IMG/VR virus record: IMGVR_UViG_3300010224_000001
Span: 192,001 to 256,000 of that record
Origin: a virus
Strand: one strand, 5' to 3'
DNA: 64,000 nucleotides
Shown here piece after piece: positions 1 to 60,903 of this stretch. The first letter of the stretch is position 1, and every line of letters begins with the position of its first letter. A program made the position numbers and the translations under genes. The notes beneath the pieces were generated by a model. The model was not told the DNA's origin. It worked only from the letters and a program-made list of their open reading frames with translations, and searched no databases.

Positions 1-2
1 AA

Positions 3-434
3 CTCATCAAACAAAGTATTCCAAGCGCGAAGCGTGTCAACAGGAGGATGACTCCACGCGCCACGATCACCACGGCCGCCATTGTTGGTACGACCATGCG
101 GTACAGCTTGCTCGATAGCCGATCGGATAGCAAACAGGTTGTCAGGAAGATCGCTAGCAGTCAGTGTAGTTTTAGCAGCCATCATGCCGCAGCCAATATC
201 CACACCTACCGCAGCTGGAATAATCGCACCTAACGTGGGAATCACACTACCGATGGTGGAGCCTTTGCCGACATGCACGTCCGGCATCACAGCGATGTGT
301 TTGTAGATGAACGGCATCTTAGCGATATTCGACAGCTGTACTTTGGCTTCTTCTTCGACCGGAACACCTTTAGTCCACATCTTGATCGGTTTGCTGCCTT
401 CGTTGTTCAGGACTTCGTAGTTGTCTTGAGACAT
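3..434 (-). CDS. rtcB: RNA-splicing/repair ligase RtcB, N-terminal part (runs off left edge)
   Basis: Not in ORF track; manual translation from ATG at 434: MSQDNYEVL...PIKMWTKGVPVEEEA...AVMPDVHVGKGSTIGSVIPT..AIIPAAVGVDIGCGM, with the RtcB PDxH and VGVDIGCG motifs. Confidence 0.95.
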   Translation of the reverse strand, partial: MSQDNYEVLNNEGSKPIKMWTKGVPVEEEAKVQLSNIAKMPFIYKHIAVMPDVHVGKGSTIGSVIPTLGAIIPAAVGVDIGCGMMAAKTTLTASDLPDNLFAIRSAIEQAVPHGRTNNGGRGDRGAWSHPPVDTLRAWNTLFDE

Positions 435-7701: not shown

Positions 7702-8103
7702 TTATTCCCTTTCTTTACTAGTTTGGAAACGCTCCGGATATTGTTTAGCATAGCTATTATAGATAGCCAAACATTCCGCTTCCGTCGGACGACGAGGCGC
7801 ATCCCTTTCGAACAGCAGCCACATTGCTTGGGTGCGGCCACGTCGTTTATACCACTGCACCCAGAGTGTCATTGCTTCACCAACACCTGGAATTTGACAG
7901 ACGTTAATTGTCGAATAACGTTCATCGTTTTCCAAGTTCACCAGATGTACGTCACTGATATCTTCAAGTTCGGCAATATCACGAATCTTACCAACGGTAG
8001 CGCAGTTCCAGTTATCGGCATTGAAAAGCGCATCTTCGAAAGCACACTTGGGGTCAGTGCCGTTCCAGGGTTTACCGCGCTCAATACAAGCTTTGCATGG
8101 CAT
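7702..8103 (-). CDS. hypothetical protein (Cys-rich)
   Basis: CxxC N-terminus, WYKRRG motif. Confidence 0.65.
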   Translation of the reverse strand: MPCKACIERGKPWNGTDPKCAFEDALFNADNWNCATVGKIRDIAELEDISDVHLVNLENDERYSTINVCQIPGVGEAMTLWVQWYKRRGRTQAMWLLFERDAPRRPTEAECLAIYNSYAKQYPERFQTSKERE

Positions 8104-9347
8104 TATACTTCTCCTTTAAGTTCTCTAAGTAGTTTCTTAACAGCCGAAACACGAACAGCATGGATCGCGTCCTTAAGTTCTCGAACATTCGTCCTGGCTT
8201 TCTGCTGATACTTAACCGCCACGACACCTACTGCCACGCCGCGTGCGGCTGACATAGCTGTCCGGCAGTATTCGGCTTGTGGATAAGGACGATCTTTGAA
8301 CGACACCGTTCTACTAGCTCGACCTCGAGCATCGCACATTGCGGCATCAATGACTTTCAAGAAGCGTTCAGGACGGCGATAGATATCGCAACGTTCAAAC
8401 ATCTTCACCAAAGTAGCAACGCGAATGTCCATAGCCCTGTGAATGTTAAGATGCTCGCGAGAAGTCATTACGGCAATCTCCTCGCAATCCTTAGGAATAC
8501 GCATCCGTTCGCAAATAGCCTTAATCAACGGAACACCAGCTTCTTCATGACCGTGGTGACTTGGCCACTGATCTTCAGGTGTTACTCCTTTGCCAACATC
8601 ATGCATCAACACTGCAAAACGAGTTTCGAGATCATAACCCATTTCAGCAGCATAATTGAGAGAGAGTTCAATGTGTGCTCCTGTCCAAATCTCAGGATGA
8701 TGTTGTTCAGCTTGGGGCACATGCCAGAGTCGATCTAACTCTGGAAAGAAACCAGCCATCAAACCAAAAGCCGTCATCATGGTAAACATCCGTCCTGGTT
8801 TAACTTCCATCAAACCACGAGAAAATTCTTTCCAGATACGCTCCGGGTTAGCACCAACCAATCGATTCTCTAAGAACAACCTTCTCGATAACCAGAATGT
8901 GTCAGTGTCGATTTTAAAGTCAAGATATCGTGCATAGAACCTGCACAACCGAAACGTACGAATCGGGTCTTCTCTGAAGCTTTCTTCAGACACCATTCGC
9001 AGTACTTTGTTCTGAATGTCAGCGCGGCCGTTATGCGGGTCGATGTATTCACGGGTTTCCGGATCATACGCAATCGCATTAATCGTCAGATCACGCTTAG
9101 CCAGATCCTCTTCCAGTGTTACACTGGGATCGAAGGTGGCCACGCCGCCCTGACGTTCACGACGTGCTAGCGAATACTCTTCTTTTGTGAATGGATGCAG
9201 AAAGGTCGGGAAGTCTTTACCGACTTGAATGTAGCCGAGACTAATCATTACCTCAGCAGTAGTGCCTACTACGACCCAGTCTTTATCCTTGGGTGTAATT
9301 CCCATCAGCTGATCTCTTACAGCTCCACCTACTAAATAGACTTTCAT
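8103..9347 (-). CDS. cca: multifunctional CCA tRNA nucleotidyltransferase / HD phosphatase
   Basis: MKVYLVGGAVRD..KDKDWVV, EDLAKRDLTINAIA, EDPIR, ERIWKE, HHPE, LMHDVGKG HD motif. Confidence 0.95.
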   Translation of the reverse strand: MKVYLVGGAVRDQLMGITPKDKDWVVVGTTAEVMISLGYIQVGKDFPTFLHPFTKEEYSLARRERQGGVATFDPSVTLEEDLAKRDLTINAIAYDPETREYIDPHNGRADIQNKVLRMVSEESFREDPIRTFRLCRFYARYLDFKIDTDTFWLSRRLFLENRLVGANPERIWKEFSRGLMEVKPGRMFTMMTAFGLMAGFFPELDRLWHVPQAEQHHPEIWTGAHIELSLNYAAEMGYDLETRFAVLMHDVGKGVTPEDQWPSHHGHEEAGVPLIKAICERMRIPKDCEEIAVMTSREHLNIHRAMDIRVATLVKMFERCDIYRRPERFLKVIDAAMCDARGRASRTVSFKDRPYPQAEYCRTAMSAARGVAVGVVAVKYQQKARTNVRELKDAIHAVRVSAVKKLLRELKGEV

Positions 9348-38481: not shown

Positions 38482-38765
38482 TTCAACACTAAGAAGGAAT
38501 ATGATTTTAGGTTCCAACGCCTTTTGATCAAAATCTTCTTAATGTTGAAACCTGGAGGAAGTTCCATGAATTTAACAGGAGTCTATCTCATGCTATTTTG
38601 TCTCGACTAATAGATACATAGCGTGTACTAAAAGGATCGAATGAGACGCGATAGGACGAGATTGCTTTAGCACTAAGCTAACTTCCAGTGAAAGGAGCTT
38701 CTATTAACCGCTGCTTGGAATCCAACTTTCAGCCAAAAGTTTAAAGGATTACGATTAATAGAAGC
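38482..38765 (-). ncRNA. candidate structured ncRNA(s): three tandem long stem-loop domains
   Basis: 15-bp and 14-bp terminal helices with G-U pairs on the minus strand; no credible ORF; terminator at 38430. Confidence 0.4.
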
Positions 38766-40992: not shown

Positions 40993-41091
40993 ATACTACG
41001 GTCACATTGCTGTGAGATCTTTACTACAACTACGGGCTACTCATCACTTATGCATTTAGTATGAAGTATCCTTTATTACTGGAGTAACCTC

Positions 41092-41442
41092 ATGCCTGCT
41101 GCAAAGAAAAAAGATGTTTACATTCGCAACGCTAAAGTAATTCGCGTTGTTGACGGAGATACCGCTGAATTTAATGTCGATCTCGGTTGTGATATCCACA
41201 TTAACATGACTTGCCGTTTCAACGGTATTAATGCACCTGAAGTCAGTACTGACGAAGGCAAAGCTTCTAAGGTTTGGCTGCAGAACAAACTTCCACCAGA
41301 ACTGCCTGTTGTCATTCAAACTGTCGCAGATAAGAAAGAGAAGTACGGTCGATATTTAGCCGACGTTTACTTACCTGGCGCATCTACTAGTATCAATGAC
41401 GAGTTGGTGAATGAAGGTCTTGCCAAACCTTACAAACCTTAA
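41092..41442 (+). CDS. thermonuclease (SNase-like)
   Basis: RVVDGDT, RFNGINAPE, KYGRYLADVY, INDELVNEGLA. Confidence 0.9.
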   Translation: MPAAKKKDVYIRNAKVIRVVDGDTAEFNVDLGCDIHINMTCRFNGINAPEVSTDEGKASKVWLQNKLPPELPVVIQTVADKKEKYGRYLADVYLPGASTSINDELVNEGLAKPYKP

Positions 41443-41501
41443 AGCTACTACATCCCTTTAATCCTGACATGACGTTAGGGTTAGAGGGACTTATGACGTA
41501 T

Positions 41502-41591
41502 TGGCGGAAAGCTTGGGATTCGAACCCAAGGATAGATTGCTCCATCGCCGTCTTAGCAGGACGGTGCTTTAGACCACTCAGCCAGCTTTCC
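41502..41591 (-). tRNA. tRNA-Ser(GCT)
   Basis: CCGTC-CT-GCT-AA-GACGG, long variable arm, G73, CCA. Confidence 0.95.
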
Positions 41592-41602
41592 ACATTTACT
41601 AC

Positions 41603-41851
41603 TTAACCATGTGCTATTTTGTTCTGATAATCATTAGAGAACACATGCGGTTCACCAATCGATTTACGAGCCTGTTCAATTAGAGCATCTACGTTATCGT
41701 AATCGATGTAGTAGAAGGTTTGACCGTCTTTAACGCGATGTCGTGGCAACTTCTCTAAGTCTTTACAGAGTTTAATCAACGCGTCTTTAGCTGTAGTATC
41801 TGTAATTGGGAATTGGCCTTCCCCTGCAAAACTATCATTACTGAAACACAT
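41603..41851 (-). CDS. hypothetical protein
   Basis: Start at MCFSND after GGAG; the ORF-track extension overlaps the tRNA-like element. Confidence 0.55.
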   Translation of the reverse strand: MCFSNDSFAGEGQFPITDTTAKDALIKLCKDLEKLPRHRVKDGQTFYYIDYDNVDALIEQARKSIGEPHVFSNDYQNKIAHG

Positions 41852-41870
41852 GACTTCTCCGTAAAGTGTT

Positions 41871-42008
41871 TGGTCGGGCGTTCTTGGAATCGAACCAAGG
41901 ACCTTCGTCTTGTGGTGAGGTTCCCCTCTGGCCGATCGCCTAAGCGGTCGCATCCGCCGAAGCGAATGGAATATTGGACGATGCTCTACCGAACTGAGCT
42001 AAACCCCG
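41871..42008 (-). ncRNA. tRNA-scaffold RNA 0: tRNA body with 67-nt three-hairpin insert replacing the anticodon loop
   Basis: CGGGGTT-TA-GCTC..GAGC-A-TCGTC[insert 41910-41976]GACGA-AGGTC-CTTGG-TTCGATT-CCAAG-AAC(G)CCCG-A-CCA. Confidence 0.85.
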
Positions 42009-42016
42009 TAAGTCTT

Positions 42017-42691
42017 TCAACCTTTTGCTACTAGTGTAAACTCAACAGGTTTGCCATCTGGTAAGAATACACTCTCAGCGTAGGTGAACATGTAAAACTT
42101 GTCAGCAGGATCCCATTTCTCATCATCCATTTTGTACATTGCAAACACTAACTCGTGAGTAATGTGTAAACAACGATTGGCTAACTTGGAGAACTCAGCA
42201 CTGACAATGATGTTACCGTAGGAGTAAGTAGTACCTTTATCCCACGAGAACGACATTGGCTTTTCTGGAGCATAACTCCATTTATCACCAGGCTTGGCTT
42301 TCTTGTATCGTTCAGTTATACCAGCGTCTTGCTGACCTGGATTAATTTTGAAACCACGATACAGCAATGGATGATTCGGAGGACGTTGAATCGATTCAAA
42401 GACTTTTTTAGCTTCTCGAAGTTTATCTAAGAGACTGTAATCAGTAACAGACACCCACTGATCAACAGCTTGAAGAAGTTCTTTGTGCTGCAACATCTTT
42501 TCAACGATCTTCATGTCTACATCTTCTTTCTGGAATGCCAGTTGAGGCGTGTATCCAAAAAGTTTTATTAAGCGCATCAGAATTTTCTTCTTCCACTCAG
42601 CTTCTTTGTAGACTTCGTTGAAGTTTGCTTCTTTCTCTAGACTGACAGAATTATCTGTAATCCAGTCTATATAAACAGGTTTAGTCGTCAT
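42017..42691 (-). CDS. putative ADP-ribosyltransferase (R-S-E clade-like)
   Basis: LLYRG...PMSFSW...YAESVF pattern; motif-level only. Confidence 0.45.
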   Translation of the reverse strand: MTTKPVYIDWITDNSVSLEKEANFNEVYKEAEWKKKILMRLIKLFGYTPQLAFQKEDVDMKIVEKMLQHKELLQAVDQWVSVTDYSLLDKLREAKKVFESIQRPPNHPLLYRGFKINPGQQDAGITERYKKAKPGDKWSYAPEKPMSFSWDKGTTYSYGNIIVSAEFSKLANRCLHITHELVFAMYKMDDEKWDPADKFYMFTYAESVFLPDGKPVEFTLVAKG

Positions 42692-42752
42692 GGTTTACCG
42701 TTACAAATGAGGGTGATAATCATAGTAATTGGTGAGACTAAACCTGTTGAAT

Positions 42753-42917
42753 TGGTGGGACGTTCCTAGATTTGAACTAGGGACCTCGATCTAGTTTAGA
42801 TGGAACCTGATTAGGGTTCTGCCTTTAACCACTCGGCCATACCTCCTAACGGAGATAGAGGGATTCGAACCCTCGGATCTTTGGTTGATCGCGCTCTAAC
42901 CGCTGAGCTAAACTCCC
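42753..42917 (-). ncRNA. tRNA-scaffold RNA A: outer tRNA with nested class II tRNA permuted in its variable arm
   Basis: GGGAGTT..CGATC[95 nt]GATCG-AGGTC-CCTAG-TTCAAAT-CTAGG-AAC(G)TCCC-A-CCA. Confidence 0.9.
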
Positions 42918-42938
42918 GGATACTTCTACTACAATGTT

Positions 42939-43110
42939 TGGTGGAGCGATGCAAGATTCGAACTTGCGACCTCTGTCTAAGCTTTGACTAGCAGGATTGT
43001 GCTCTAACCATCTGAGCTACTAACGGACGTTGACACCCGTTAGATCGGACTTGAACCGATGACCCCAATCGTGAATAAGACAGCGTTCTACCTGACTGAA
43101 CTAATCCCCC
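42939..43110 (-). ncRNA. tRNA-scaffold RNA B: outer tRNA with nested anticodon-permuted tRNA
   Basis: GGGGGAT..CTGTC[101 nt]GACAG-AGGTC-GCAAG-TTCGAAT-CTTGC-ATC(G)CTCC-A-CCA. Confidence 0.9.
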
Positions 43111-43128
43111 ATGTACTACTTTGAAACT

Positions 43129-43288
43129 TGGTGGAGCGATCTAGGAATCGAACCTAGGACCTCTGCCTGAGTCGAATGCTCTACCAGCTGAGCTACCGAT
43201 AAGTAACGAAGTGTTACCTACCGAGCGGGACTCGAACCCGCGACCCGTCGATTAGAATGGCAGCGCTCTATCACTGAGCTAATCCCCC
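43129..43288 (-). ncRNA. tRNA-scaffold RNA C: outer tRNA with nested anticodon-permuted tRNA
   Basis: GGGGGAT..CTGCC[91 nt]GGCAG-AGGTC-CTAGG-TTCGATT-CCTAG-ATC(G)CTCC-A-CCA. Confidence 0.9.
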
Positions 43289-43307
43289 GCAAACTGCTTT
43301 GTGAAAC

Positions 43308-43437
43308 TGGTAGGGCGCTTCTGGATTTTAACCAGAGACCTCCGTCTAGTTAACCAATAACCACACCCCCGTTGGGAGGTACGGCTGGACTTGAACCAGC
43401 GATTTGACGGCGCTCTAACAGGCTGAGCTAAGCCCCT
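43308..43437 (-). ncRNA. tRNA-scaffold RNA D: outer tRNA with minimal permuted T-arm/acceptor/D-like insert
   Basis: AGGGGCT..CCGTC[59 nt]GACGG-AGGTC-TCTGG-TTAAAAT-CCAGA-AGC(G)CCCT-A-CCA. Confidence 0.85.
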
Positions 43438-43446
43438 AATGAAACT

Positions 43447-43617
43447 TTACTTAAGAACACACATTAAAGTGATGCTCTGCTTTTTATCACTGTTAGCAAT
43501 CTTCGCATTCTTAGTAGCTTCGATGCATTGCTCCCAGCTTTGCATCGGAAACTCTTTCTGATCTATACTCCAACCATCGGAATGGATCCAGATAAGAAAT
43601 ACTGCTAATGCCTTCAT
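43447..43617 (-). CDS. small hypothetical protein
   Basis: Manual 56 aa ORF MKALAVFLIWIH..SWEQCIEA..LMCVLK. Confidence 0.55.
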   Translation of the reverse strand: MKALAVFLIWIHSDGWSIDQKEFPMQSWEQCIEATKNAKIANSDKKQSITLMCVLK

Positions 43618-43638
43618 GTCAATGATCTTTCTATTCGT

Positions 43639-43894
43639 TAGTGGAGAGATTGCGGGAGTTCAACCCGCGACTTTGATGGAACCCTAAAGCTGCAGCACTT
43701 GGTTTAGTTAAAGGTGAGTTACGATAATTTACCGCACTTGACCACCCAAAGCTTATGCATAAAACCCAAACTGTAAGAAAACCATGAAAGAAAACTTACA
43801 GAGGTTTTATAGAAGGTAACCTACAAACTTTAGAAGTATAATCTGCACCGAAGCCTTCCGCCAAGAAGGAGTCTTGCTTCTCGACTATCTCTCC
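43639..43894 (-). ncRNA. 256-nt structured RNA closed by tRNA-like acceptor stem and T-arm (tmRNA-like ends)
   Basis: 5' GGAGAGAT pairs with 3' ATCTCTCC-A-CTA; T-arm GCGGG-TTGAACT-CCCGC; internal long helices. Confidence 0.7.
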
Positions 43895-43947
43895 CAAGAG
43901 AACTTAATCTCTTGCACATTATGGGAAGTACGTGTAATTTTTTACTT

Positions 43948-44403
43948 TTAGACAACTATTTGACCGATAGCGATCCGTTGCTTGGTCTTAGCTAAACGAG
44001 GTCCAAAGTGGTTGAGCCATTTTACAGTAGCTATGCGAAGGTGACGTGTTCGGCATTCTTCGTTATACTCACCTTTAAAAGCTGCTTCTTGGTAAGTATT
44101 ACGAATAGTCCAAACGTTGTGTTTCCACACCTCCACAGTAAAGCTACCGAGCTGACTTAACTCAAGAGCAAGTTCATACGAGCACTCGAAAGCAATATAG
44201 AAACCGTAAGGATGACCTTCACAAGAGAAACGGGTTTTAGCACCGAGTTCTTCTAGTGCCAAGATGAAGAAATTCACACCTGGTTCCAGCGTTGAAACTG
44301 GATATGTAATCTCTACACTTTCAAAGCCGCGCTCAAGCTTAAGTTTACAAGCTTGATCCCAGGGATGTTCTGACATAATCGCCGGACCATTAATGAATGA
44401 CAT
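43948..44403 (-). CDS. hypothetical protein
   Basis: TRFSCEGHP motif. Confidence 0.65.
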   Translation of the reverse strand: MSFINGPAIMSEHPWDQACKLKLERGFESVEITYPVSTLEPGVNFFILALEELGAKTRFSCEGHPYGFYIAFECSYELALELSQLGSFTVEVWKHNVWTIRNTYQEAAFKGEYNEECRTRHLRIATVKWLNHFGPRLAKTKQRIAIGQIVV

Positions 44404-44816
44404 TATTTCACCTTGACTTTATCGAAACACTCATGAAGATCCTGGGAAGAACGACCACTTTCCCAATCGATGATAAGCCAGCGTTCACCATTACGATGTT
44501 CTCGGATATATTTCTCCACTACTTTACCAGGCGTATTGATCGCGGAGATAAGTTCCAGACCTTCGCAGATTTTTTCATACGGCATCTGGGACAATGGTTT
44601 GCCTGAATAGTCGGTTGTTTCAACCACGACGATATCTGCGCAATCGCCTTCGTTATGGCGTGTCCACTTACCGTTATCCCAATCTACGTGAATCTCTTTA
44701 GCTTGAGTAGTAAAGCGAACAATGCCTTCTTCTTTCTCTGCATTGGCTACTCGTAAATCGGTCGTGATTTGAGCGATAGGGATTTCCGACAATTTCTTAC
44801 CTACAAGTTGTTCCAT
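44403..44816 (-). CDS. hypothetical protein with internal two-fold repeat
   Basis: GKKLSEIP..VDWDNG and GKPLSQMP..IDWESG. Confidence 0.65.
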   Translation of the reverse strand: MEQLVGKKLSEIPIAQITTDLRVANAEKEEGIVRFTTQAKEIHVDWDNGKWTRHNEGDCADIVVVETTDYSGKPLSQMPYEKICEGLELISAINTPGKVVEKYIREHRNGERWLIIDWESGRSSQDLHECFDKVKVK

Positions 44817-45118
44817 TTTTTCTTCTCTCTTATAAAGGCAACAGTGTTTTGAGTTTTTGATATAGGAATGGATTGCTACGGCAAGCTATGTTAATCGCTC
44901 GTGCTGCATCTTGTTCATTCATTTGACTCAGCAGTTGGGACAATTGGTTGAACTGTTGTTCTTCTGTTGAGGGGATTAATTCGTTACTTGCCATGTTCTA
45001 TTCCCGGTTGGAATGATGAACGATAAAGCTCGTTCGTTTTCAGATCTACATTAACACAAAAAAACTAGATTACGAACATAAAAAAACAGAGAGACCTTTC
45101 AGTCTCTCTGTATTGTTT

Positions 45119-45445
45119 TTAATGCCAATAGTTCAGATGGGGATTCTTACGCACCATCACTTCATAGTCGCTGTCTTTCTTATAGCGAGCCAGTTCATGA
45201 CGAATCCGGGCACGGTGAATCTGATGCTGGAGTTGACGGCTTTCATGAGGATAGATGTTACAGTAACGACTATCTTGATAACGGTCGCTATGGTAATGTG
45301 CAATTGCTTTCGCTTTGGCTTTACCCTCATGACGAACTTCTTTCAAATACTTACCGCCGTATTTGCTTTCAACGTAAATCCAGTCAAACATACGCCAGAC
45401 AGTGTTTCGGTTATACCCATTCTTCCTACGAATTGTTCTACTCAC
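45119..45445 (-). CDS. basic hypothetical protein (MSRT family)
   Basis: Paralog of 45735-46064 (SKYGGKY, HSDR). Confidence 0.7.
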   Translation of the reverse strand: MSRTIRRKNGYNRNTVWRMFDWIYVESKYGGKYLKEVRHEGKAKAKAIAHYHSDRYQDSRYCNIYPHESRQLQHQIHRARIRHELARYKKDSDYEVMVRKNPHLNYWH

Positions 45446-45734
45446 TTTAATCTCCAGATAGTAATACCACCTACCTGGAGTTTGTGAAATGCGAAGTGAT
45501 GAACATGGTTAATAGACGCGTTTACGACGAATACGAAGCGGATGCATCTGAACCAGATGCGCTGCCAGGATAGACCAGGCGCCAACCATCAACCAACCCA
45601 CCATGGCGATGTTGAAGGCGCCGCTCGAACCCTGATCCATTAAAGCCGGGCTAGTGATGAAACCGTGAACGAGGATTGCGATAACGGAAGCTACGAGATT
45701 TACGATATATTTCATTTTTATCACCTTTTAAAAG

Positions 45735-46064
45735 TTAATCCCAATAATCCCAACGTGGTTGTGCGCGAAGCATAATCACGTACTCAGAGTTATGACGATA
45801 GTTGGCCAGAGCAGTTCTTGCTTTGACACGATGCCTGCGATGATCTACGTTACGATACACCCAAGGGGTATTACCAATATGACAACGAGCAAAACGGTCG
45901 CTATGAAATTCAGCCAGTCTGCGCTTGAATTCTTTACCCTCGCATTTTACACGTACGTAGTATTTCCCACCGTATTTACTTTGACGCCATTCACTATTTT
46001 CCATCCACATATCAAACCAAGGATTAAGTTTGACTGCATTTTTCCTGCGAAAGGTTCTGCTCAT
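45735..46064 (-). CDS. basic hypothetical protein (MSRT family)
   Basis: MSRTFRRKN..SKYGGKY..FHSDR..WDYWD. Confidence 0.7.
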   Translation of the reverse strand: MSRTFRRKNAVKLNPWFDMWMENSEWRQSKYGGKYYVRVKCEGKEFKRRLAEFHSDRFARCHIGNTPWVYRNVDHRRHRVKARTALANYRHNSEYVIMLRAQPRWDYWD

Positions 46065-52618: not shown

Positions 52619-52708
52619 TGGCGTAGGAGGAAGGAGTCGAACCTTGCTAGCTTTCGCCAGACCTCCGTCACTCAAGAGTGCCTCACAACCGTTTGGCTAA
52701 CCTCCCAC
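52619..52708 (-). tRNA. atypical 8/4-fold class II tRNA-like gene with aberrant anticodon loop
   Basis: 8-bp acceptor GTGGGAGG/CCTCCTAC, 4-bp T-stem AAGG-TTCGACT-CCTT, long variable arm, G73-CCA. Confidence 0.75.
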
Positions 52709-60815: not shown

Positions 60816-60903
60816 TGGTAGACCGAGCGGGCTTTGAACCCGCAGTGGAGTTTCCTCGCTGAATTATGAGTTCAGTGCCTGCGACCAGTACGGCTTCCGG
60901 TCC
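60816..60903 (-). tRNA. tRNA with CAT anticodon and long variable arm (Met/Ile2/Leu-like, identity unclear)
   Basis: CTGAA-CT-CAT-AA-TTCAG, variable arm GAG-GAAA-CTC, A73-CCA. Confidence 0.85.

What the first reader, a model, noticed from the sequence alone, without database searches (positions are those of the whole stretch)
42792..42886. Element A: a complete class II cloverleaf opened in its variable arm and grafted onto the outer anticodon stem
Insert on the minus strand: AGAT-CC-GAGGG-TTCGAAT-CCCTC-TATCTCC-GTTA-GGAGGTA-TG-GCC-GAGTGGTTAAA-GGC-A-GAACC-CT-AAT-CA-GGTTC-C-ATCT. This is a Ser-like body with G73, its own 7-nt anticodon loop (AAT, odd C37), acceptor ends joined by GTTA, and AGAT/ATCT as the variable stem. 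The permutation point differs from B and C, implying independent origins of the same design.
Basis: seen in the sequence. Interest (0 to 1): 0.8.

Follow-up and report, generated by a model that had tools for sequence, protein, structure and literature searches.

The report
tRNA nested inside phage tRNA scaffold
A giant soil phage encodes a 165-base RNA in which a complete, back-to-front, sealed serine-type tRNA replaces the decoding loop of another tRNA, so it most likely imitates tRNA and does not read codons; what it does is not yet known.

Summary
Window 42753-42917 (minus strand) is one 165-nt gene. Its outer part is a class I tRNA body with a 1-nt bulge in the acceptor stem and an encoded A-CCA. 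Its anticodon loop is replaced by 95 nt (42792-42886).

Those 95 nt are a complete class II, Ser/Tyr-like tRNA body, circularly permuted in the variable arm. Its 7-bp acceptor is sealed by G-UUA, and it keeps its own 5-bp/7-nt anticodon arm (CUAAUCA).
- Re-opened at the sealed loop, it passes ARAGORN as well as the phage's real tRNAs; 0 of 200 shuffles do.
- The automatic "tRNA-Ile(AAT)" call and the Rfam tRNA hit are chimeras of inner and outer halves.

The outer scaffold is a real family: 14 copies in 6 related 310-324 kb phage records. Every helix position pairs in 8 of 8 distinct bodies.

Element A itself has no ortholog in anything I could search. No RNA data exist. The short variable stem is not favoured by energy alone.

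Best reading: a stable, non-decoding tRNA mimic on a natural tRNA scaffold. Its design is closest to YrlA-type Y RNAs, but Ro60 is absent. Opening by RNase P followed by serylation remains possible but untested.

This scan had already noted sealed permuted tRNA mimics on other DNA. The tRNA-in-tRNA scaffold was noted only in this genome.

The parts
42753..42917 (-). Whole Element A gene, 165 nt: outer tRNA scaffold plus cargo, ending in the encoded A-CCA.
42887..42917 (-). Outer 5' module: acceptor 5' strand GGGAGUU, UA8-9, D arm GCUC/GAGC, G26, anticodon-stem 5' strand CGAUC.
   Evidence: every helix position pairs in 8 of 8 distinct host bodies
42792..42886 (-). The 95-nt insert that replaces the outer anticodon loop. 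These are the finding's coordinates.
42877..42880 (-). AGAU, proposed 3' strand of the inner variable stem. It pairs with AUCU at 42798-42801.
   Evidence: Complementarity only. Pair probability 0.01.
42858..42874 (-). Inner T arm: GAGGG-UUCGAAU-CCCUC.
42840..42857 (-). Inner acceptor hairpin: UAUCUCC, then G73, then UUA, then GGAGGUA. 7 bp sealed by a 4-nt loop.
   Evidence: Pair probability 0.88-1.0. 0 of 66 tandem junctions pair 7/7. The same GUUA seal is found in G006/G007 cargo and in L113.
42821..42837 (-). Inner class II D arm: 3-bp stem GCC/GGC with an 11-nt loop containing GG.
42803..42819 (-). Inner anticodon arm: GAACC-CUAAUCA-GGUUC. It has U33, the 'anticodon' AAU and C37.
   Evidence: Pair probability 0.89-0.96.
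42798..42801 (-). AUCU, proposed 5' strand of the inner variable stem.
42753..42791 (-). Outer 3' module: anticodon-stem 3' strand GAUCG, AGGUC variable loop, T arm CCUAG-UUCAAAU-CUAGG, acceptor 3' strand AAC[G]UCCC (bulged G at 42761), A73, CCA.
41871..42008 (-). Sister element E0: same bulged scaffold with a 67-nt non-tRNA cargo.
42939..43110 (-). Sister element B: same scaffold. The cargo is a class I body opened in the anticodon loop.
43129..43288 (-). Sister element C: same scaffold. The cargo is a class I body opened in the anticodon loop.
43308..43437 (-). Sister element D: same scaffold. The cargo is a T arm, a sealed acceptor hairpin and a small hairpin.

Best explanation
Element A is a real small-RNA gene of a 322.6-kb phage and a member of a clade-specific family of tRNA-scaffolded RNAs.

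The outer class I tRNA body has a 7-bp acceptor with one bulged nucleotide, a D arm, a T arm, an AGGUC variable loop, A73 and an encoded CCA. Like the neighbouring genuine tRNAs of the same operon-like cluster, it should be cut out by RNase P and 3' trimming. It should also be protected from decay, as in the engineered 'tRNA scaffold'.

This outer body has no anticodon. In its place it displays a second, complete L-shaped body: a Ser/Tyr-type class II tRNA joined to the scaffold through its variable arm. That inner body has a sealed acceptor end and a free anticodon arm.

The mature RNA therefore decodes nothing. It acts by being bound by proteins that recognise tRNA shape (elbow, acceptor-T helix, anticodon arm). 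It works either as a decoy or sponge for a tRNA-targeting host factor, or as a tether in the manner of YrlA-type Y RNAs.

Shown: the sequence anatomy, the tRNA quality of the inner body, the conservation and covariation of the scaffold, and the clustering with tRNA genes.

Inferred: expression, processing, the nested pairing of the short stems, and the decoy or tether function.
For: Anatomy and tRNA quality:
-. The re-opened inner body passes ARAGORN up to 115%, against 110-125% for the real tRNAs. 9 of 95 rotations are called, all at the seal. 0 of 200 shuffles are called.
- By eye on the parse, all the usual tertiary-core nucleotides are present in both bodies: U8, A14, G15-C48, G18G19, A21, G53-C61 and the T loop UUC.A.

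Not two tandem tRNAs:
- The tandem fold scores -40.2 kcal/mol, against -50.6 for nested and -53.0 for the MFE.
- Tandem acceptor pair probabilities are 0.0, against 0.88-1.0 for the sealed inner acceptor and 0.55-0.95 for the outer acceptor.
- X has no variable loop.
- 0 of 66 real tandem junctions cross-pair 7 of 7.

Scaffold family:
- The genome has exactly 5 bulged scaffolds, and all of them carry cargo. None of the canonical tRNAs has the bulge.
- There are 14 scaffolds in 6 records and 8 distinct bodies. All 21 helix positions pair in 8 of 8, with many double-sided changes. These include A's own G28-C42 and A29-U41 in the stem that closes the cargo.
- In relatives the sealed inner acceptor changes CUUCCCA-GUAU-UGGGAAG to CUUCCCC-GUUA-GGGGAAG, a compensatory change.

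No codon reading:
- The ends of the 8 cargos do not rebuild a U33/R37 loop (read rows).
- The inner loop has C37.

Precedents:
- YrlA is a sealed, permuted, L-shaped tRNA mimic that is modified by tRNA enzymes (PMC4201824 and bioRxiv 10.1101/312249, passages read).
- Engineered tRNA scaffolds with inserts at the anticodon stem are processed and stable in E. coli (PMC3753655, introduction passages read).
- An unrelated phage contig (L113) carries the same cargo topology: T arm, 7-bp acceptor sealed by GUUA, D arm and a full anticodon arm, on a long stem instead of a tRNA.
Against: - No ortholog of A itself. BLAST of A on 5 related records gives only 6 matches of 27 nt or less. Pattern scans of IMG/VR and JGI metagenomes found none. 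The inner fold therefore has no covariation support and could be evolutionarily young.
- Energy alone does not favour the outer anticodon stem or the AGAU/AUCU stem (probabilities 0.02 and 0.01). A local-hairpin alternative is 1 kcal/mol better.
- No protein partner is identified. TROVE/Ro60 is absent from G000 and from 5 relatives. Ten neighbouring ORFs have no Pfam family at E<=0.01. The 507-aa protein next to the L113 array has no relative in G000.
- The decoy or tether role is inference only.
Confidence: 0.5

Rival explanations
1. Two-in-one precursor. After the outer body is matured, RNase P also cuts the sealed inner acceptor between A(42847) and G(42846). The UUA is nibbled back to G73, and the host or phage CCA-adding enzyme adds CCA. 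The result is a two-piece, base-paired RNA with two acceptor ends. Its inner Ser-type body can be serylated and may even enter translation or another aminoacyl-tRNA-using reaction.
For: - The inner acceptor is exactly 7 bp and stacks on a 5-bp T stem.
- M. smegmatis YrlA, the one YrlA with a 7-bp sealed acceptor, is cut by RNase P RNA in vitro. In vivo it is cleaved, nibbled and CCA-tailed (PMC4201824 and 10.1101/312249, passages read).
- The first loop nucleotide is G, the Ser discriminator. In the three GU-started tetraloop seals that I read (A, the G001 type and the G006/G007 type) the first loop nucleotide is likewise G.
- The inner body carries G1-C72, G2-C71, A3-U70 and a class II D arm, and its best matches are Ser tRNAs.
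- The phage encodes a CCA-adding enzyme at 8103-9347 (PHROG E=1.2e-111).
Against: - The seal is a 4-nt loop, so there is no leader. In sisters B and C the acceptor hairpin is extended to 10-12 bp, which suggests a closed end is the norm for the family.
- C37 and an unmodifiable-looking A34 make decoding unlikely.
- SerRS would meet a variable arm that continues into a whole tRNA.
- There is no RNA data.
Confidence: 0.15
2. Young by-product. A is a recent recombination product: a unit-length piece of a tandem class II tRNA array dropped into a copy of the scaffold. It is tolerated but has no function of its own.
For: - It is a singleton. 0 of 5 related records have it, while the 133-nt and 126-nt scaffold types are shared by four records (G001, G005, G006, G007) and G004 carries a separate 129-nt scaffold.
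- The dimeric-tRNA origin model for such permuted bodies is in print (10.1101/312249, discussion passage read).
- Perfect stems are what a young element would show even without selection.
Against: - G000 has expanded the family to five members with five different cargos, all intact.
- A's outer body has diverged from its paralogs by compensated changes in the acceptor and anticodon stems, which takes time under selection.
- The inner body matches no sampled tRNA better than 34 of 72, so it is not a fresh copy.
Confidence: 0.15
3. Two adjacent, slightly degenerate tRNA genes, as automatic annotation reads them: X (42850-42917, Rfam tRNA 33.5 bits) and Y (42757-42846, ARAGORN tRNA-Ile(AAT), Rfam 30.5 bits).
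For: - Both calls exist.
- Y has a neat 5-bp hairpin AUCUA-AAC-UAGAU where a class II variable arm would sit.
Against: - The acceptor strands of X and of Y each pair only 5 of 7, while the swapped partners pair 7 of 7.
- The tandem fold is about 10 kcal/mol worse than the nested fold, and its acceptor pairs have probability 0.0.
- X has no variable loop, and ARAGORN never calls it.
- The spacer would be 3 nt.
- 55 of 66 real neighbouring tRNAs pair 7 of 7 with themselves, and 0 of 66 do so with the neighbour.
Confidence: 0.03
4. Protein-spliced intron. The 95 nt are removed from the outer anticodon loop by an endonuclease, and the phage RtcB ligase joins the halves. This gives a normal outer tRNA and a circular permuted inner tRNA that is then opened, as in Cyanidioschyzon permuted tRNA genes.
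For: - G000 encodes RtcB (432 bits).
- The permuted order of halves is as in the algal genes (PMC3978253, abstract seen in the search listing; 10.1101/312249, discussion passage read).
Against: - No tRNA-splicing endonuclease family (PF01974) is found in G000.
- RtcB is present in only 1 of 5 relatives tested (G003). It is absent from G001, G004 and G006, which carry scaffolds.
- The first and last nucleotides of the 8 cargos do not rebuild a loop with U33 and a purine at 37 (read by eye).
- By eye, the junction is a 6x6 internal loop, not a 3-4-3 bulge-helix-bulge.
Confidence: 0.03

Closest known systems
YrlA, the tRNA-like Y RNA of bacteria and some phages (Rfam RF02553; Chen et al. 2014, PMC4201824; Wang et al. 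2018, bioRxiv 10.1101/312249)
   Same: - It is a circularly permuted tRNA body with the T arm 5' of the D arm and the acceptor stem closed by a loop.
- It keeps the L-shape tertiary nucleotides.
- One member with a 7-bp acceptor is opened by RNase P and CCA-tailed.
- It is proposed to derive from dimeric tRNA transcripts.
   Different: - A gives no YrlA hit even at E<=5, while sisters B and C reach only 34 and 32.6 bits against a gathering score of 69.
- A's ends leave through the variable arm, not the anticodon stem, so it keeps a whole anticodon arm.
- The 'handle' is a complete tRNA with CCA, not a Ro60-binding stem.
- No TROVE/Ro60 gene is found in the phage or in 5 relatives.
Engineered tRNA scaffold for recombinant RNA (Ponchon and Dardel approach; PMC3753655, introduction read)
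   Same: The acceptor stem, T arm and D arm are kept. The anticodon stem-loop is turned into an insertion site closed by a helix. The chimera is recognised, processed and stabilised by the tRNA machinery.
   Different: - This one is natural, not designed.
- The scaffold carries a conserved 1-nt acceptor bulge and an encoded A-CCA.
- The cargo is itself a tRNA.
Circularly permuted tRNA genes of Cyanidioschyzon merolae and some archaea (PMC3978253, abstract only)
   Same: The 3' half is encoded upstream of the 5' half, and the acceptor ends are joined by a short intervening sequence.
   Different: - Those genes are free-standing. They are matured through a bulge-helix-bulge cut, a circular intermediate and RNase P/Z, and they yield working tRNAs.
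- Here the permuted body is embedded in another tRNA.
- No splicing endonuclease is encoded, and no BHB is evident.
Uncatalogued phage arrays of sealed permuted tRNAs on a long stem (locus L113, IMG/VR contig of 64.5 kb; compare scan notes e1-5734099 and e1-5490521)
   Same: The cargo order is the same as in A: T arm, 7-bp acceptor sealed by GUUA, D arm and a full anticodon arm with a 7-nt loop. The opening lies in the variable region.
   Different: - The body is mounted on a long imperfect stem, not on a tRNA.
- It lies just upstream of a 507-aa protein with no Pfam or PDB sequence match and no relative in G000.
- No sequence homology to A is shown.
Bacterial class II tRNA-Ser
   Same: G73, G1-C72/G2-C71/A3-U70, a 3-bp D stem with a long D loop, and a long variable arm. 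Best similarity is to Ser tRNAs of this phage clade.
   Different: - The acceptor is sealed.
- The variable arm is open and continues into the scaffold.
- The anticodon loop is CUAAUCA (AAU with C37), which no Ser tRNA has.

Membership tests
Canonical decoding tRNA gene | One body with a free 5' end and 3' (CCA) end and a 7-nt anticodon loop in that same body | tested here: not met
   The outer body has free ends but 95 nt in place of the loop. The inner body has the loop but a sealed acceptor.
Canonical decoding tRNA gene | U33 and a purine at position 37 in the anticodon loop | tested here: not met
   The inner loop is CUAAUCA: U33 is present, and position 37 is C.
YrlA (Rfam RF02553) | Covariance-model score at or above the gathering score of 69 bits | tested here: not met
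   A gives no YrlA match at E<=5. B reaches 34.0 bits and C 32.6 bits.
YrlA (Rfam RF02553) | T arm 5' of the D arm, with a closed acceptor stem between them | tested here: met
   T arm 44-60, sealed acceptor 61-78, D arm 81-97 of the element.
YrlA (Rfam RF02553) | RNA ends emerge from the anticodon stem, which continues into a Ro60-binding module | tested here: not met
   The ends emerge from the variable arm. The anticodon arm is intact, and the continuation is a tRNA anticodon stem.
YrlA (Rfam RF02553) | Encoded next to a Ro60/Rsr (TROVE) gene | tested here: not met
   PF05731 gave 0 matches in G000 and 0 of 5 in relatives. The control genomes did match.
Circularly permuted tRNA genes (algal/archaeal type) | 3' half encoded upstream of the 5' half of one tRNA | tested here: met
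Circularly permuted tRNA genes (algal/archaeal type) | Bulge-helix-bulge at the joined termini, and a splicing endonuclease to cut it | tested here: not met
   PF01974 is absent from G000. By eye, the junction is a 6x6 internal loop followed by a 4-bp helix. The host's genes are unknown.
Circularly permuted tRNA genes (algal/archaeal type) | Maturation through a circular intermediate to a working tRNA | not testable with these tools
   No RNA run holds the stretch.
Bulged-acceptor tRNA scaffold family of this phage clade (defined here) | 7-bp acceptor with one unpaired nucleotide after the third base of the 3' strand, then A73 and an encoded CCA | tested here: met
   A has AAC[G]UCCC-ACCA. The feature is present in 14 of 14 scaffolds, with the bulge being G, U or A.
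Bulged-acceptor tRNA scaffold family of this phage clade (defined here) | UA8-9, a 4-bp D stem, a 5-bp anticodon stem closing a cargo of 56-101 nt, an AGGUC variable loop and a 5-bp T stem | tested here: met
   All helix positions pair in 8 of 8 distinct bodies. A's cargo is 95 nt.
tRNA with group I intron | A self-splicing intron of about 200 nt or more in the anticodon loop, recognisable by Rfam | tested here: not met
   The insert is 95 nt and is itself a tRNA. There was no intron family among the Rfam matches.
tmRNA (one-piece or permuted) | tRNA-like domain plus a tag reading frame; detection by ARAGORN or Rfam | tested here: not met
   ARAGORN finds no tmRNA. The only tmRNA_permuted match is 15 bits against a gathering score of 47, and it lies elsewhere at 43099-43157.

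The most novel reading that the evidence does not exclude
The phage clade has evolved a natural, modular 'tRNA chassis', marked by an acceptor-stem bulge, that displays interchangeable RNA cargos.

In Element A the cargo is a full Ser-type tRNA. RNase P opens it and the phage CCA-adding enzyme completes it. The product would be a branched, two-piece RNA with two acceptor ends, one of them serylatable. Such a bivalent tRNA has no known counterpart. It could deliver or sequester an aminoacyl group outside normal decoding, or bridge two tRNA-binding enzymes.
Probability: 0.1. Interest if true: 0.9.

Novelty: new variant of a known kind. Interest (0 to 1): 0.62.

Why it matters
- **A new architecture.** If expressed as predicted, this is a tRNA body carried inside another tRNA body. 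My literature searches did not turn up this architecture. Those searches were full-text and limited to open-access papers and preprints; subscription journals and supplements were not seen.
- **A natural tRNA scaffold.** It suggests that the 'tRNA scaffold' trick used by RNA engineers already exists in nature.
- **More ways to mimic tRNA.** It widens the range of sealed tRNA mimics beyond Ro60-linked Y RNAs. It also gives a set of five related RNAs with different cargos for finding out which tRNA-binding host or phage factors such mimics target.
- **An annotation trap.** Standard tools report a non-existent tRNA-Ile(AAT) here.

Tried and rejected
**Relatives through the neighbouring gene**
- The single 224-aa protein gave no IMG/VR locus.
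- Its family has 21 homolog clusters. An alignment of 17 sequences (16 of the 21 homologs plus the window's protein) gave 4 loci. In the one I read (L004) the gene is not beside a tRNA cluster. ARAGORN found no tRNA gene in three of the four loci and one in L007.
The 14.9-kb contig that holds the 91%-identical neighbour protein P0001 could therefore not be fetched.

**Pattern scans for an A-like element**
- 0 hits. One search was too narrow.
-, on G001-G003: 0 hits, because I had required a G at the bulge.
- 15 hits, all ordinary tandem tRNA pairs.
- Metagenome scan: 3 hits. None has the scaffold's 5' module, and two look like tmRNA 3' ends, judged by eye.

**Sealed-acceptor scan**
- 104 stretches. 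Of the 102 new loci, one pairs 7 of 7 (L113) and one pairs 6 of 7. The other two stretches are the already held G006 and G007 loci.

**Sequencing runs**
- No RNA holder was listed.
- The four DNA runs laid gave only a few exact 151-256-nt contigs and generic T-arm pieces from other organisms. No variant lay inside Element A, so this gave no evidence on expression or on covariation.

**Other checks**
- megablast of 41000-46000 against GenBank phages: no match.
- Sigma-70 and terminator scan of 41500-44100: 6 and 4 sites, against 3.7 and 2.4 expected. This was not informative.
- A motif upstream of the cluster, shared by eye with G003, occurs once in the genome, so it cannot be called a promoter class.
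- Complementarity of A's loop CUAAUC to GAUUAG at the 5' ends of B and C: about ten such 6-mer matches are expected by chance in a cluster of this size (my estimate), so I dropped it.
- CCACCA tagging (PMC10275265, one passage read): A, B and C end in CCACCA, but E0, D and the relatives do not, so it is not a family feature.
- RtcB as the family's ligase: rejected on co-occurrence.
- DUF7873, a lead from scan note e1-5953914: I had no accession for a genome-wide search. The ten ORFs around the cluster have no Pfam family at E<=0.01.
I corrected that value and re-sent the report otherwise unchanged.

**Rows dropped**
- In one search I ignored long combinations made by the scan from two genes. 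These were the 350-nt C-5'/B-3' row and the 321-, 337-, 266-, 240-, 204-, 182- and 139-nt rows.
- In one search duplicates and the chimeric Ile call itself were left out.
Full report
**Context.** The window is bases 192001-256000 of a 322,570-bp virus record with direct terminal repeats, a jumbo phage. Short exact contigs of it appear in soil and root metagenome runs. ARAGORN finds 9 tRNA genes in the whole genome, all on the minus strand of this window. The phage also encodes a CCA-adding enzyme (8103-9347) and an RtcB ligase.

**The observation.**
- The outer part is a class I tRNA body: acceptor 5' strand GGGAGUU, UA, D arm, G26 and anticodon-stem 5' strand CGAUC. After the insert come GAUCG, AGGUC, a T arm, and the 8-nt acceptor 3' strand AAC[G]UCCC, which pairs 7 of 7 if the G at 42761 is bulged. 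Then come A73 and CCA.
- Between the two strands of the outer anticodon stem lie 95 nt (42792-42886).
- These read, in order: AACCAA, AGAU, CC, a T arm, UAUCUCC, G, UUA, GGAGGUA, UG, a class II D arm, A, a perfect anticodon arm with loop CUAAUCA, C, AUCU, AAACUA.

**Is it more than chance?** I cut the insert open at every one of its 95 positions and ran ARAGORN on each rotation.
- Only 9 rotations are called. All 9 open in or beside the sealed loop, and all give the same 92-nt class II tRNA.
- None of 200 shuffled inserts gives any call.
- The re-opened body still passes when ARAGORN's thresholds are raised to 115%. Among the phage's tRNAs that I tested, Tyr and Thr also pass to 115%, Leu to 110% and both Ser tRNAs to 125%.
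- The sealed acceptor pairs 7 of 7. In 66 ordinary neighbouring tRNA pairs from 15 phage loci, the upstream 3' strand paired 7 of 7 with the downstream 5' strand in 0 cases. 55 of those 66 tRNAs paired 7 of 7 with themselves.

**The automatic annotations are chimeras.** ARAGORN's tRNA-Ile(AAT) at 42757-42846 joins the inner 5' half to the outer 3' half. Rfam's 33.5-bit tRNA at 42850-42917 joins the outer 5' half to the inner 3' half.
- As two tandem genes their acceptors pair only 5 of 7 each.
- X has no variable loop.
- The tandem fold is about 10 kcal/mol worse than the nested one (-40.2 against -50.6), and its acceptor pairs have probability 0.0 in the ensemble.

**What energy does not settle.** The MFE (-53.0 kcal/mol) and the ensemble keep the outer acceptor (0.55-0.95), the sealed inner acceptor (0.88-1.0) and the inner anticodon arm (0.89-0.96). 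They prefer a local hairpin, GAUC-AACCAAA-GAUC (0.96), to the outer anticodon stem (0.02) and to the AGAU/AUCU stem (0.01). A fold with two local hairpins is 1 kcal/mol better than the nested fold. GAUC occurs three times here, so several registers are open.

**Family evidence for the outer body.**
- My scan of the genome finds exactly five tRNA-like bodies with a 1-nt bulge in the acceptor 3' strand. They are E0, A, B, C and D. All five carry cargo (67, 95, 101, 91 and 59 nt), and no canonical tRNA has the bulge.
- A pattern that excludes tandem tRNAs by spacing found the same scaffold in five IMG/VR loci. All of them lie in phage records of 310-324 kb or in a fragment of one. Whole-record scans gave 1-2 copies each.
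- Over the 14 copies there are 8 distinct bodies. Every one of the 7 acceptor, 5 anticodon-stem, 5 T-stem and 4 D-stem positions pairs in 8 of 8, with many changes on both sides.
- UA8-9, AGGUC, A73, CCA and the place of the bulge never vary. The bulged base is G, U or A.
- A's own outer anticodon stem differs from its paralogs by two compensated pairs. This supports the stem that closes the cargo, where energy alone does not.
- In relatives the sealed acceptor of a D-type cargo changes from CUUCCCA-GUAU-UGGGAAG to CUUCCCC-GUUA-GGGGAAG. This is a compensated pair, and the new loop is the same as in A.

**Element A itself is a singleton.**
- BLAST of the 165 nt against five related records finds only six pieces of 27 nt or less, five of them within the inner T arm region.
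- Four pattern scans of IMG/VR and one of JGI metagenomes found no ortholog.
- The inner fold therefore rests on its tRNA quality, not on covariation.

**What kind of tRNA is inside?** It has G73, G1-C72, G2-C71, A3-U70, a 3-bp D stem with an 11-nt loop, and a long variable arm. Among 224 ARAGORN tRNAs from 43 sources the best matches are Ser(GCU) of a relative, the phage's own Ser(UGA), and Tyr. The best score is only 34 of 72. So it is Ser-like but not a fresh copy. Its loop CUAAUCA has U33, but position 37 is C and the 'anticodon' is AAU.

**Origin.** B and C are opened in the anticodon loop and A in the variable arm. The cargos are unalike in sequence, so separate captures are plausible. 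Each cargo is what one would cut from a head-to-tail tRNA pair, which is the published origin model for YrlA (10.1101/312249, discussion read). The chassis, however, is one homologous family. The recurrence of the design is inheritance of the scaffold, not convergence.

**How it most likely works.** The outer body has everything the neighbouring real tRNAs have for maturation: an 18-21-nt spacer, an acceptor-T helix, an elbow and an encoded CCA. What it lacks is an anticodon.
- The first and last bases of the eight cargos do not rebuild a U33/R37 loop. No splicing endonuclease is encoded. RtcB is missing from three scaffold-bearing relatives. Splicing is therefore unlikely.
- The design matches the engineered tRNA scaffold, which E. 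coli processes and keeps stable (PMC3753655).
- The cargo matches the sealed, permuted, L-shaped tRNA-like domain of YrlA Y RNAs. These are modified by tRNA enzymes and are thought to recruit elbow-binding proteins (PMC4201824; 10.1101/312249).
- I therefore read A as a stable, non-decoding, two-bodied tRNA mimic that works by being bound, as a decoy or as a tether. That last step is inference.
- Ro60 is absent, and no neighbouring ORF has a known family.

**A comparator found here.** One unrelated 64.5-kb phage contig (L113) has an array of units with A's cargo order. The one I folded has a T arm, a 7-bp acceptor sealed by GUUA, a D arm and a full anticodon arm, and it is closed by a long stem instead of a tRNA. 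The array lies just before a 507-aa protein of no known family. Variable-region-opened sealed tRNAs therefore exist elsewhere. Mounting one on a tRNA chassis is what is special here.

**The main rival.** RNase P may open the 7-bp sealed acceptor, as it does in M. smegmatis YrlA. CCA would then be added, giving a two-piece RNA with two acceptor ends and a Ser-type inner body. Against this, the seal is only a 4-nt loop, the hairpins are extended in B and C, and position 37 is C. It needs the bench.

**Verdict.** It is a new variant of the sealed tRNA-mimic theme on a natural tRNA scaffold. Interest is 0.62, held down by the lack of an ortholog, of RNA data and of a partner.

Noticed in passing
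window 42761, and the same place in E0, B, C and D; L031, L032, L033, L034, L035: Every cargo-bearing scaffold has one unpaired base (G, U or A) after the third base of the acceptor 3' strand. No ordinary tRNA of these phages has it. What reads this bulge is unknown. It could block EF-Tu or an aaRS, or mark the RNA for a phage factor.
   Followed up: partly
window 38553-38686 (-): A 134-nt element has a 7-bp acceptor without a bulge, a T-loop-like end, U73-CCA and a long internal domain. ARAGORN and Rfam do not call it.
   Followed up: no
window 52619-52708 (-): A 90-nt tRNA-like gene has G73-CCA, a long variable hairpin and a possible 8-bp acceptor. ARAGORN does not call it and Rfam does not reach gathering score.
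   Followed up: no
window 60816-60903 (-): ARAGORN's tRNA-Met(CAU) is 88 nt, with a variable hairpin unusual for Met.
   Followed up: no
window 43639-43894 (-): Upstream of D lies a roughly 256-nt stretch whose ends look like a tRNA acceptor plus T arm (GCGGG-UUGAACU-CCCGC), ending in CCACUA. By eye, the T arm resembles that of tmRNA as I recall it.
   Followed up: no
spacers after the CCA of B, C and Tyr in the window; also L010 and L012: By eye, the spacers between cluster members share GUUU...GUAGUA-like words across different phages. They may be a processing signal or simply shared ancestry.
   Followed up: no
L012 1498-1608 (-) (record G003): A 111-nt class II-like tRNA body without a bulge has its anticodon loop replaced by two small hairpins (Rfam tRNA 35.8 bits). 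A nearby scaffold ends in AUCA instead of ACCA.
   Followed up: partly
L113 330-625 (+) and ORF 715-2238: An array of sealed permuted tRNAs that keep full anticodon arms. In one of them the sealing loop begins GCCA. The array lies directly upstream of a 507-aa protein with no Pfam family and no PDB sequence match.
   Followed up: partly
window 1-338 and upstream (G000:191211-192338, -): The phage encodes RtcB RNA ligase (432 bits). Among the five relatives tested it is present only in G003.
   Followed up: partly
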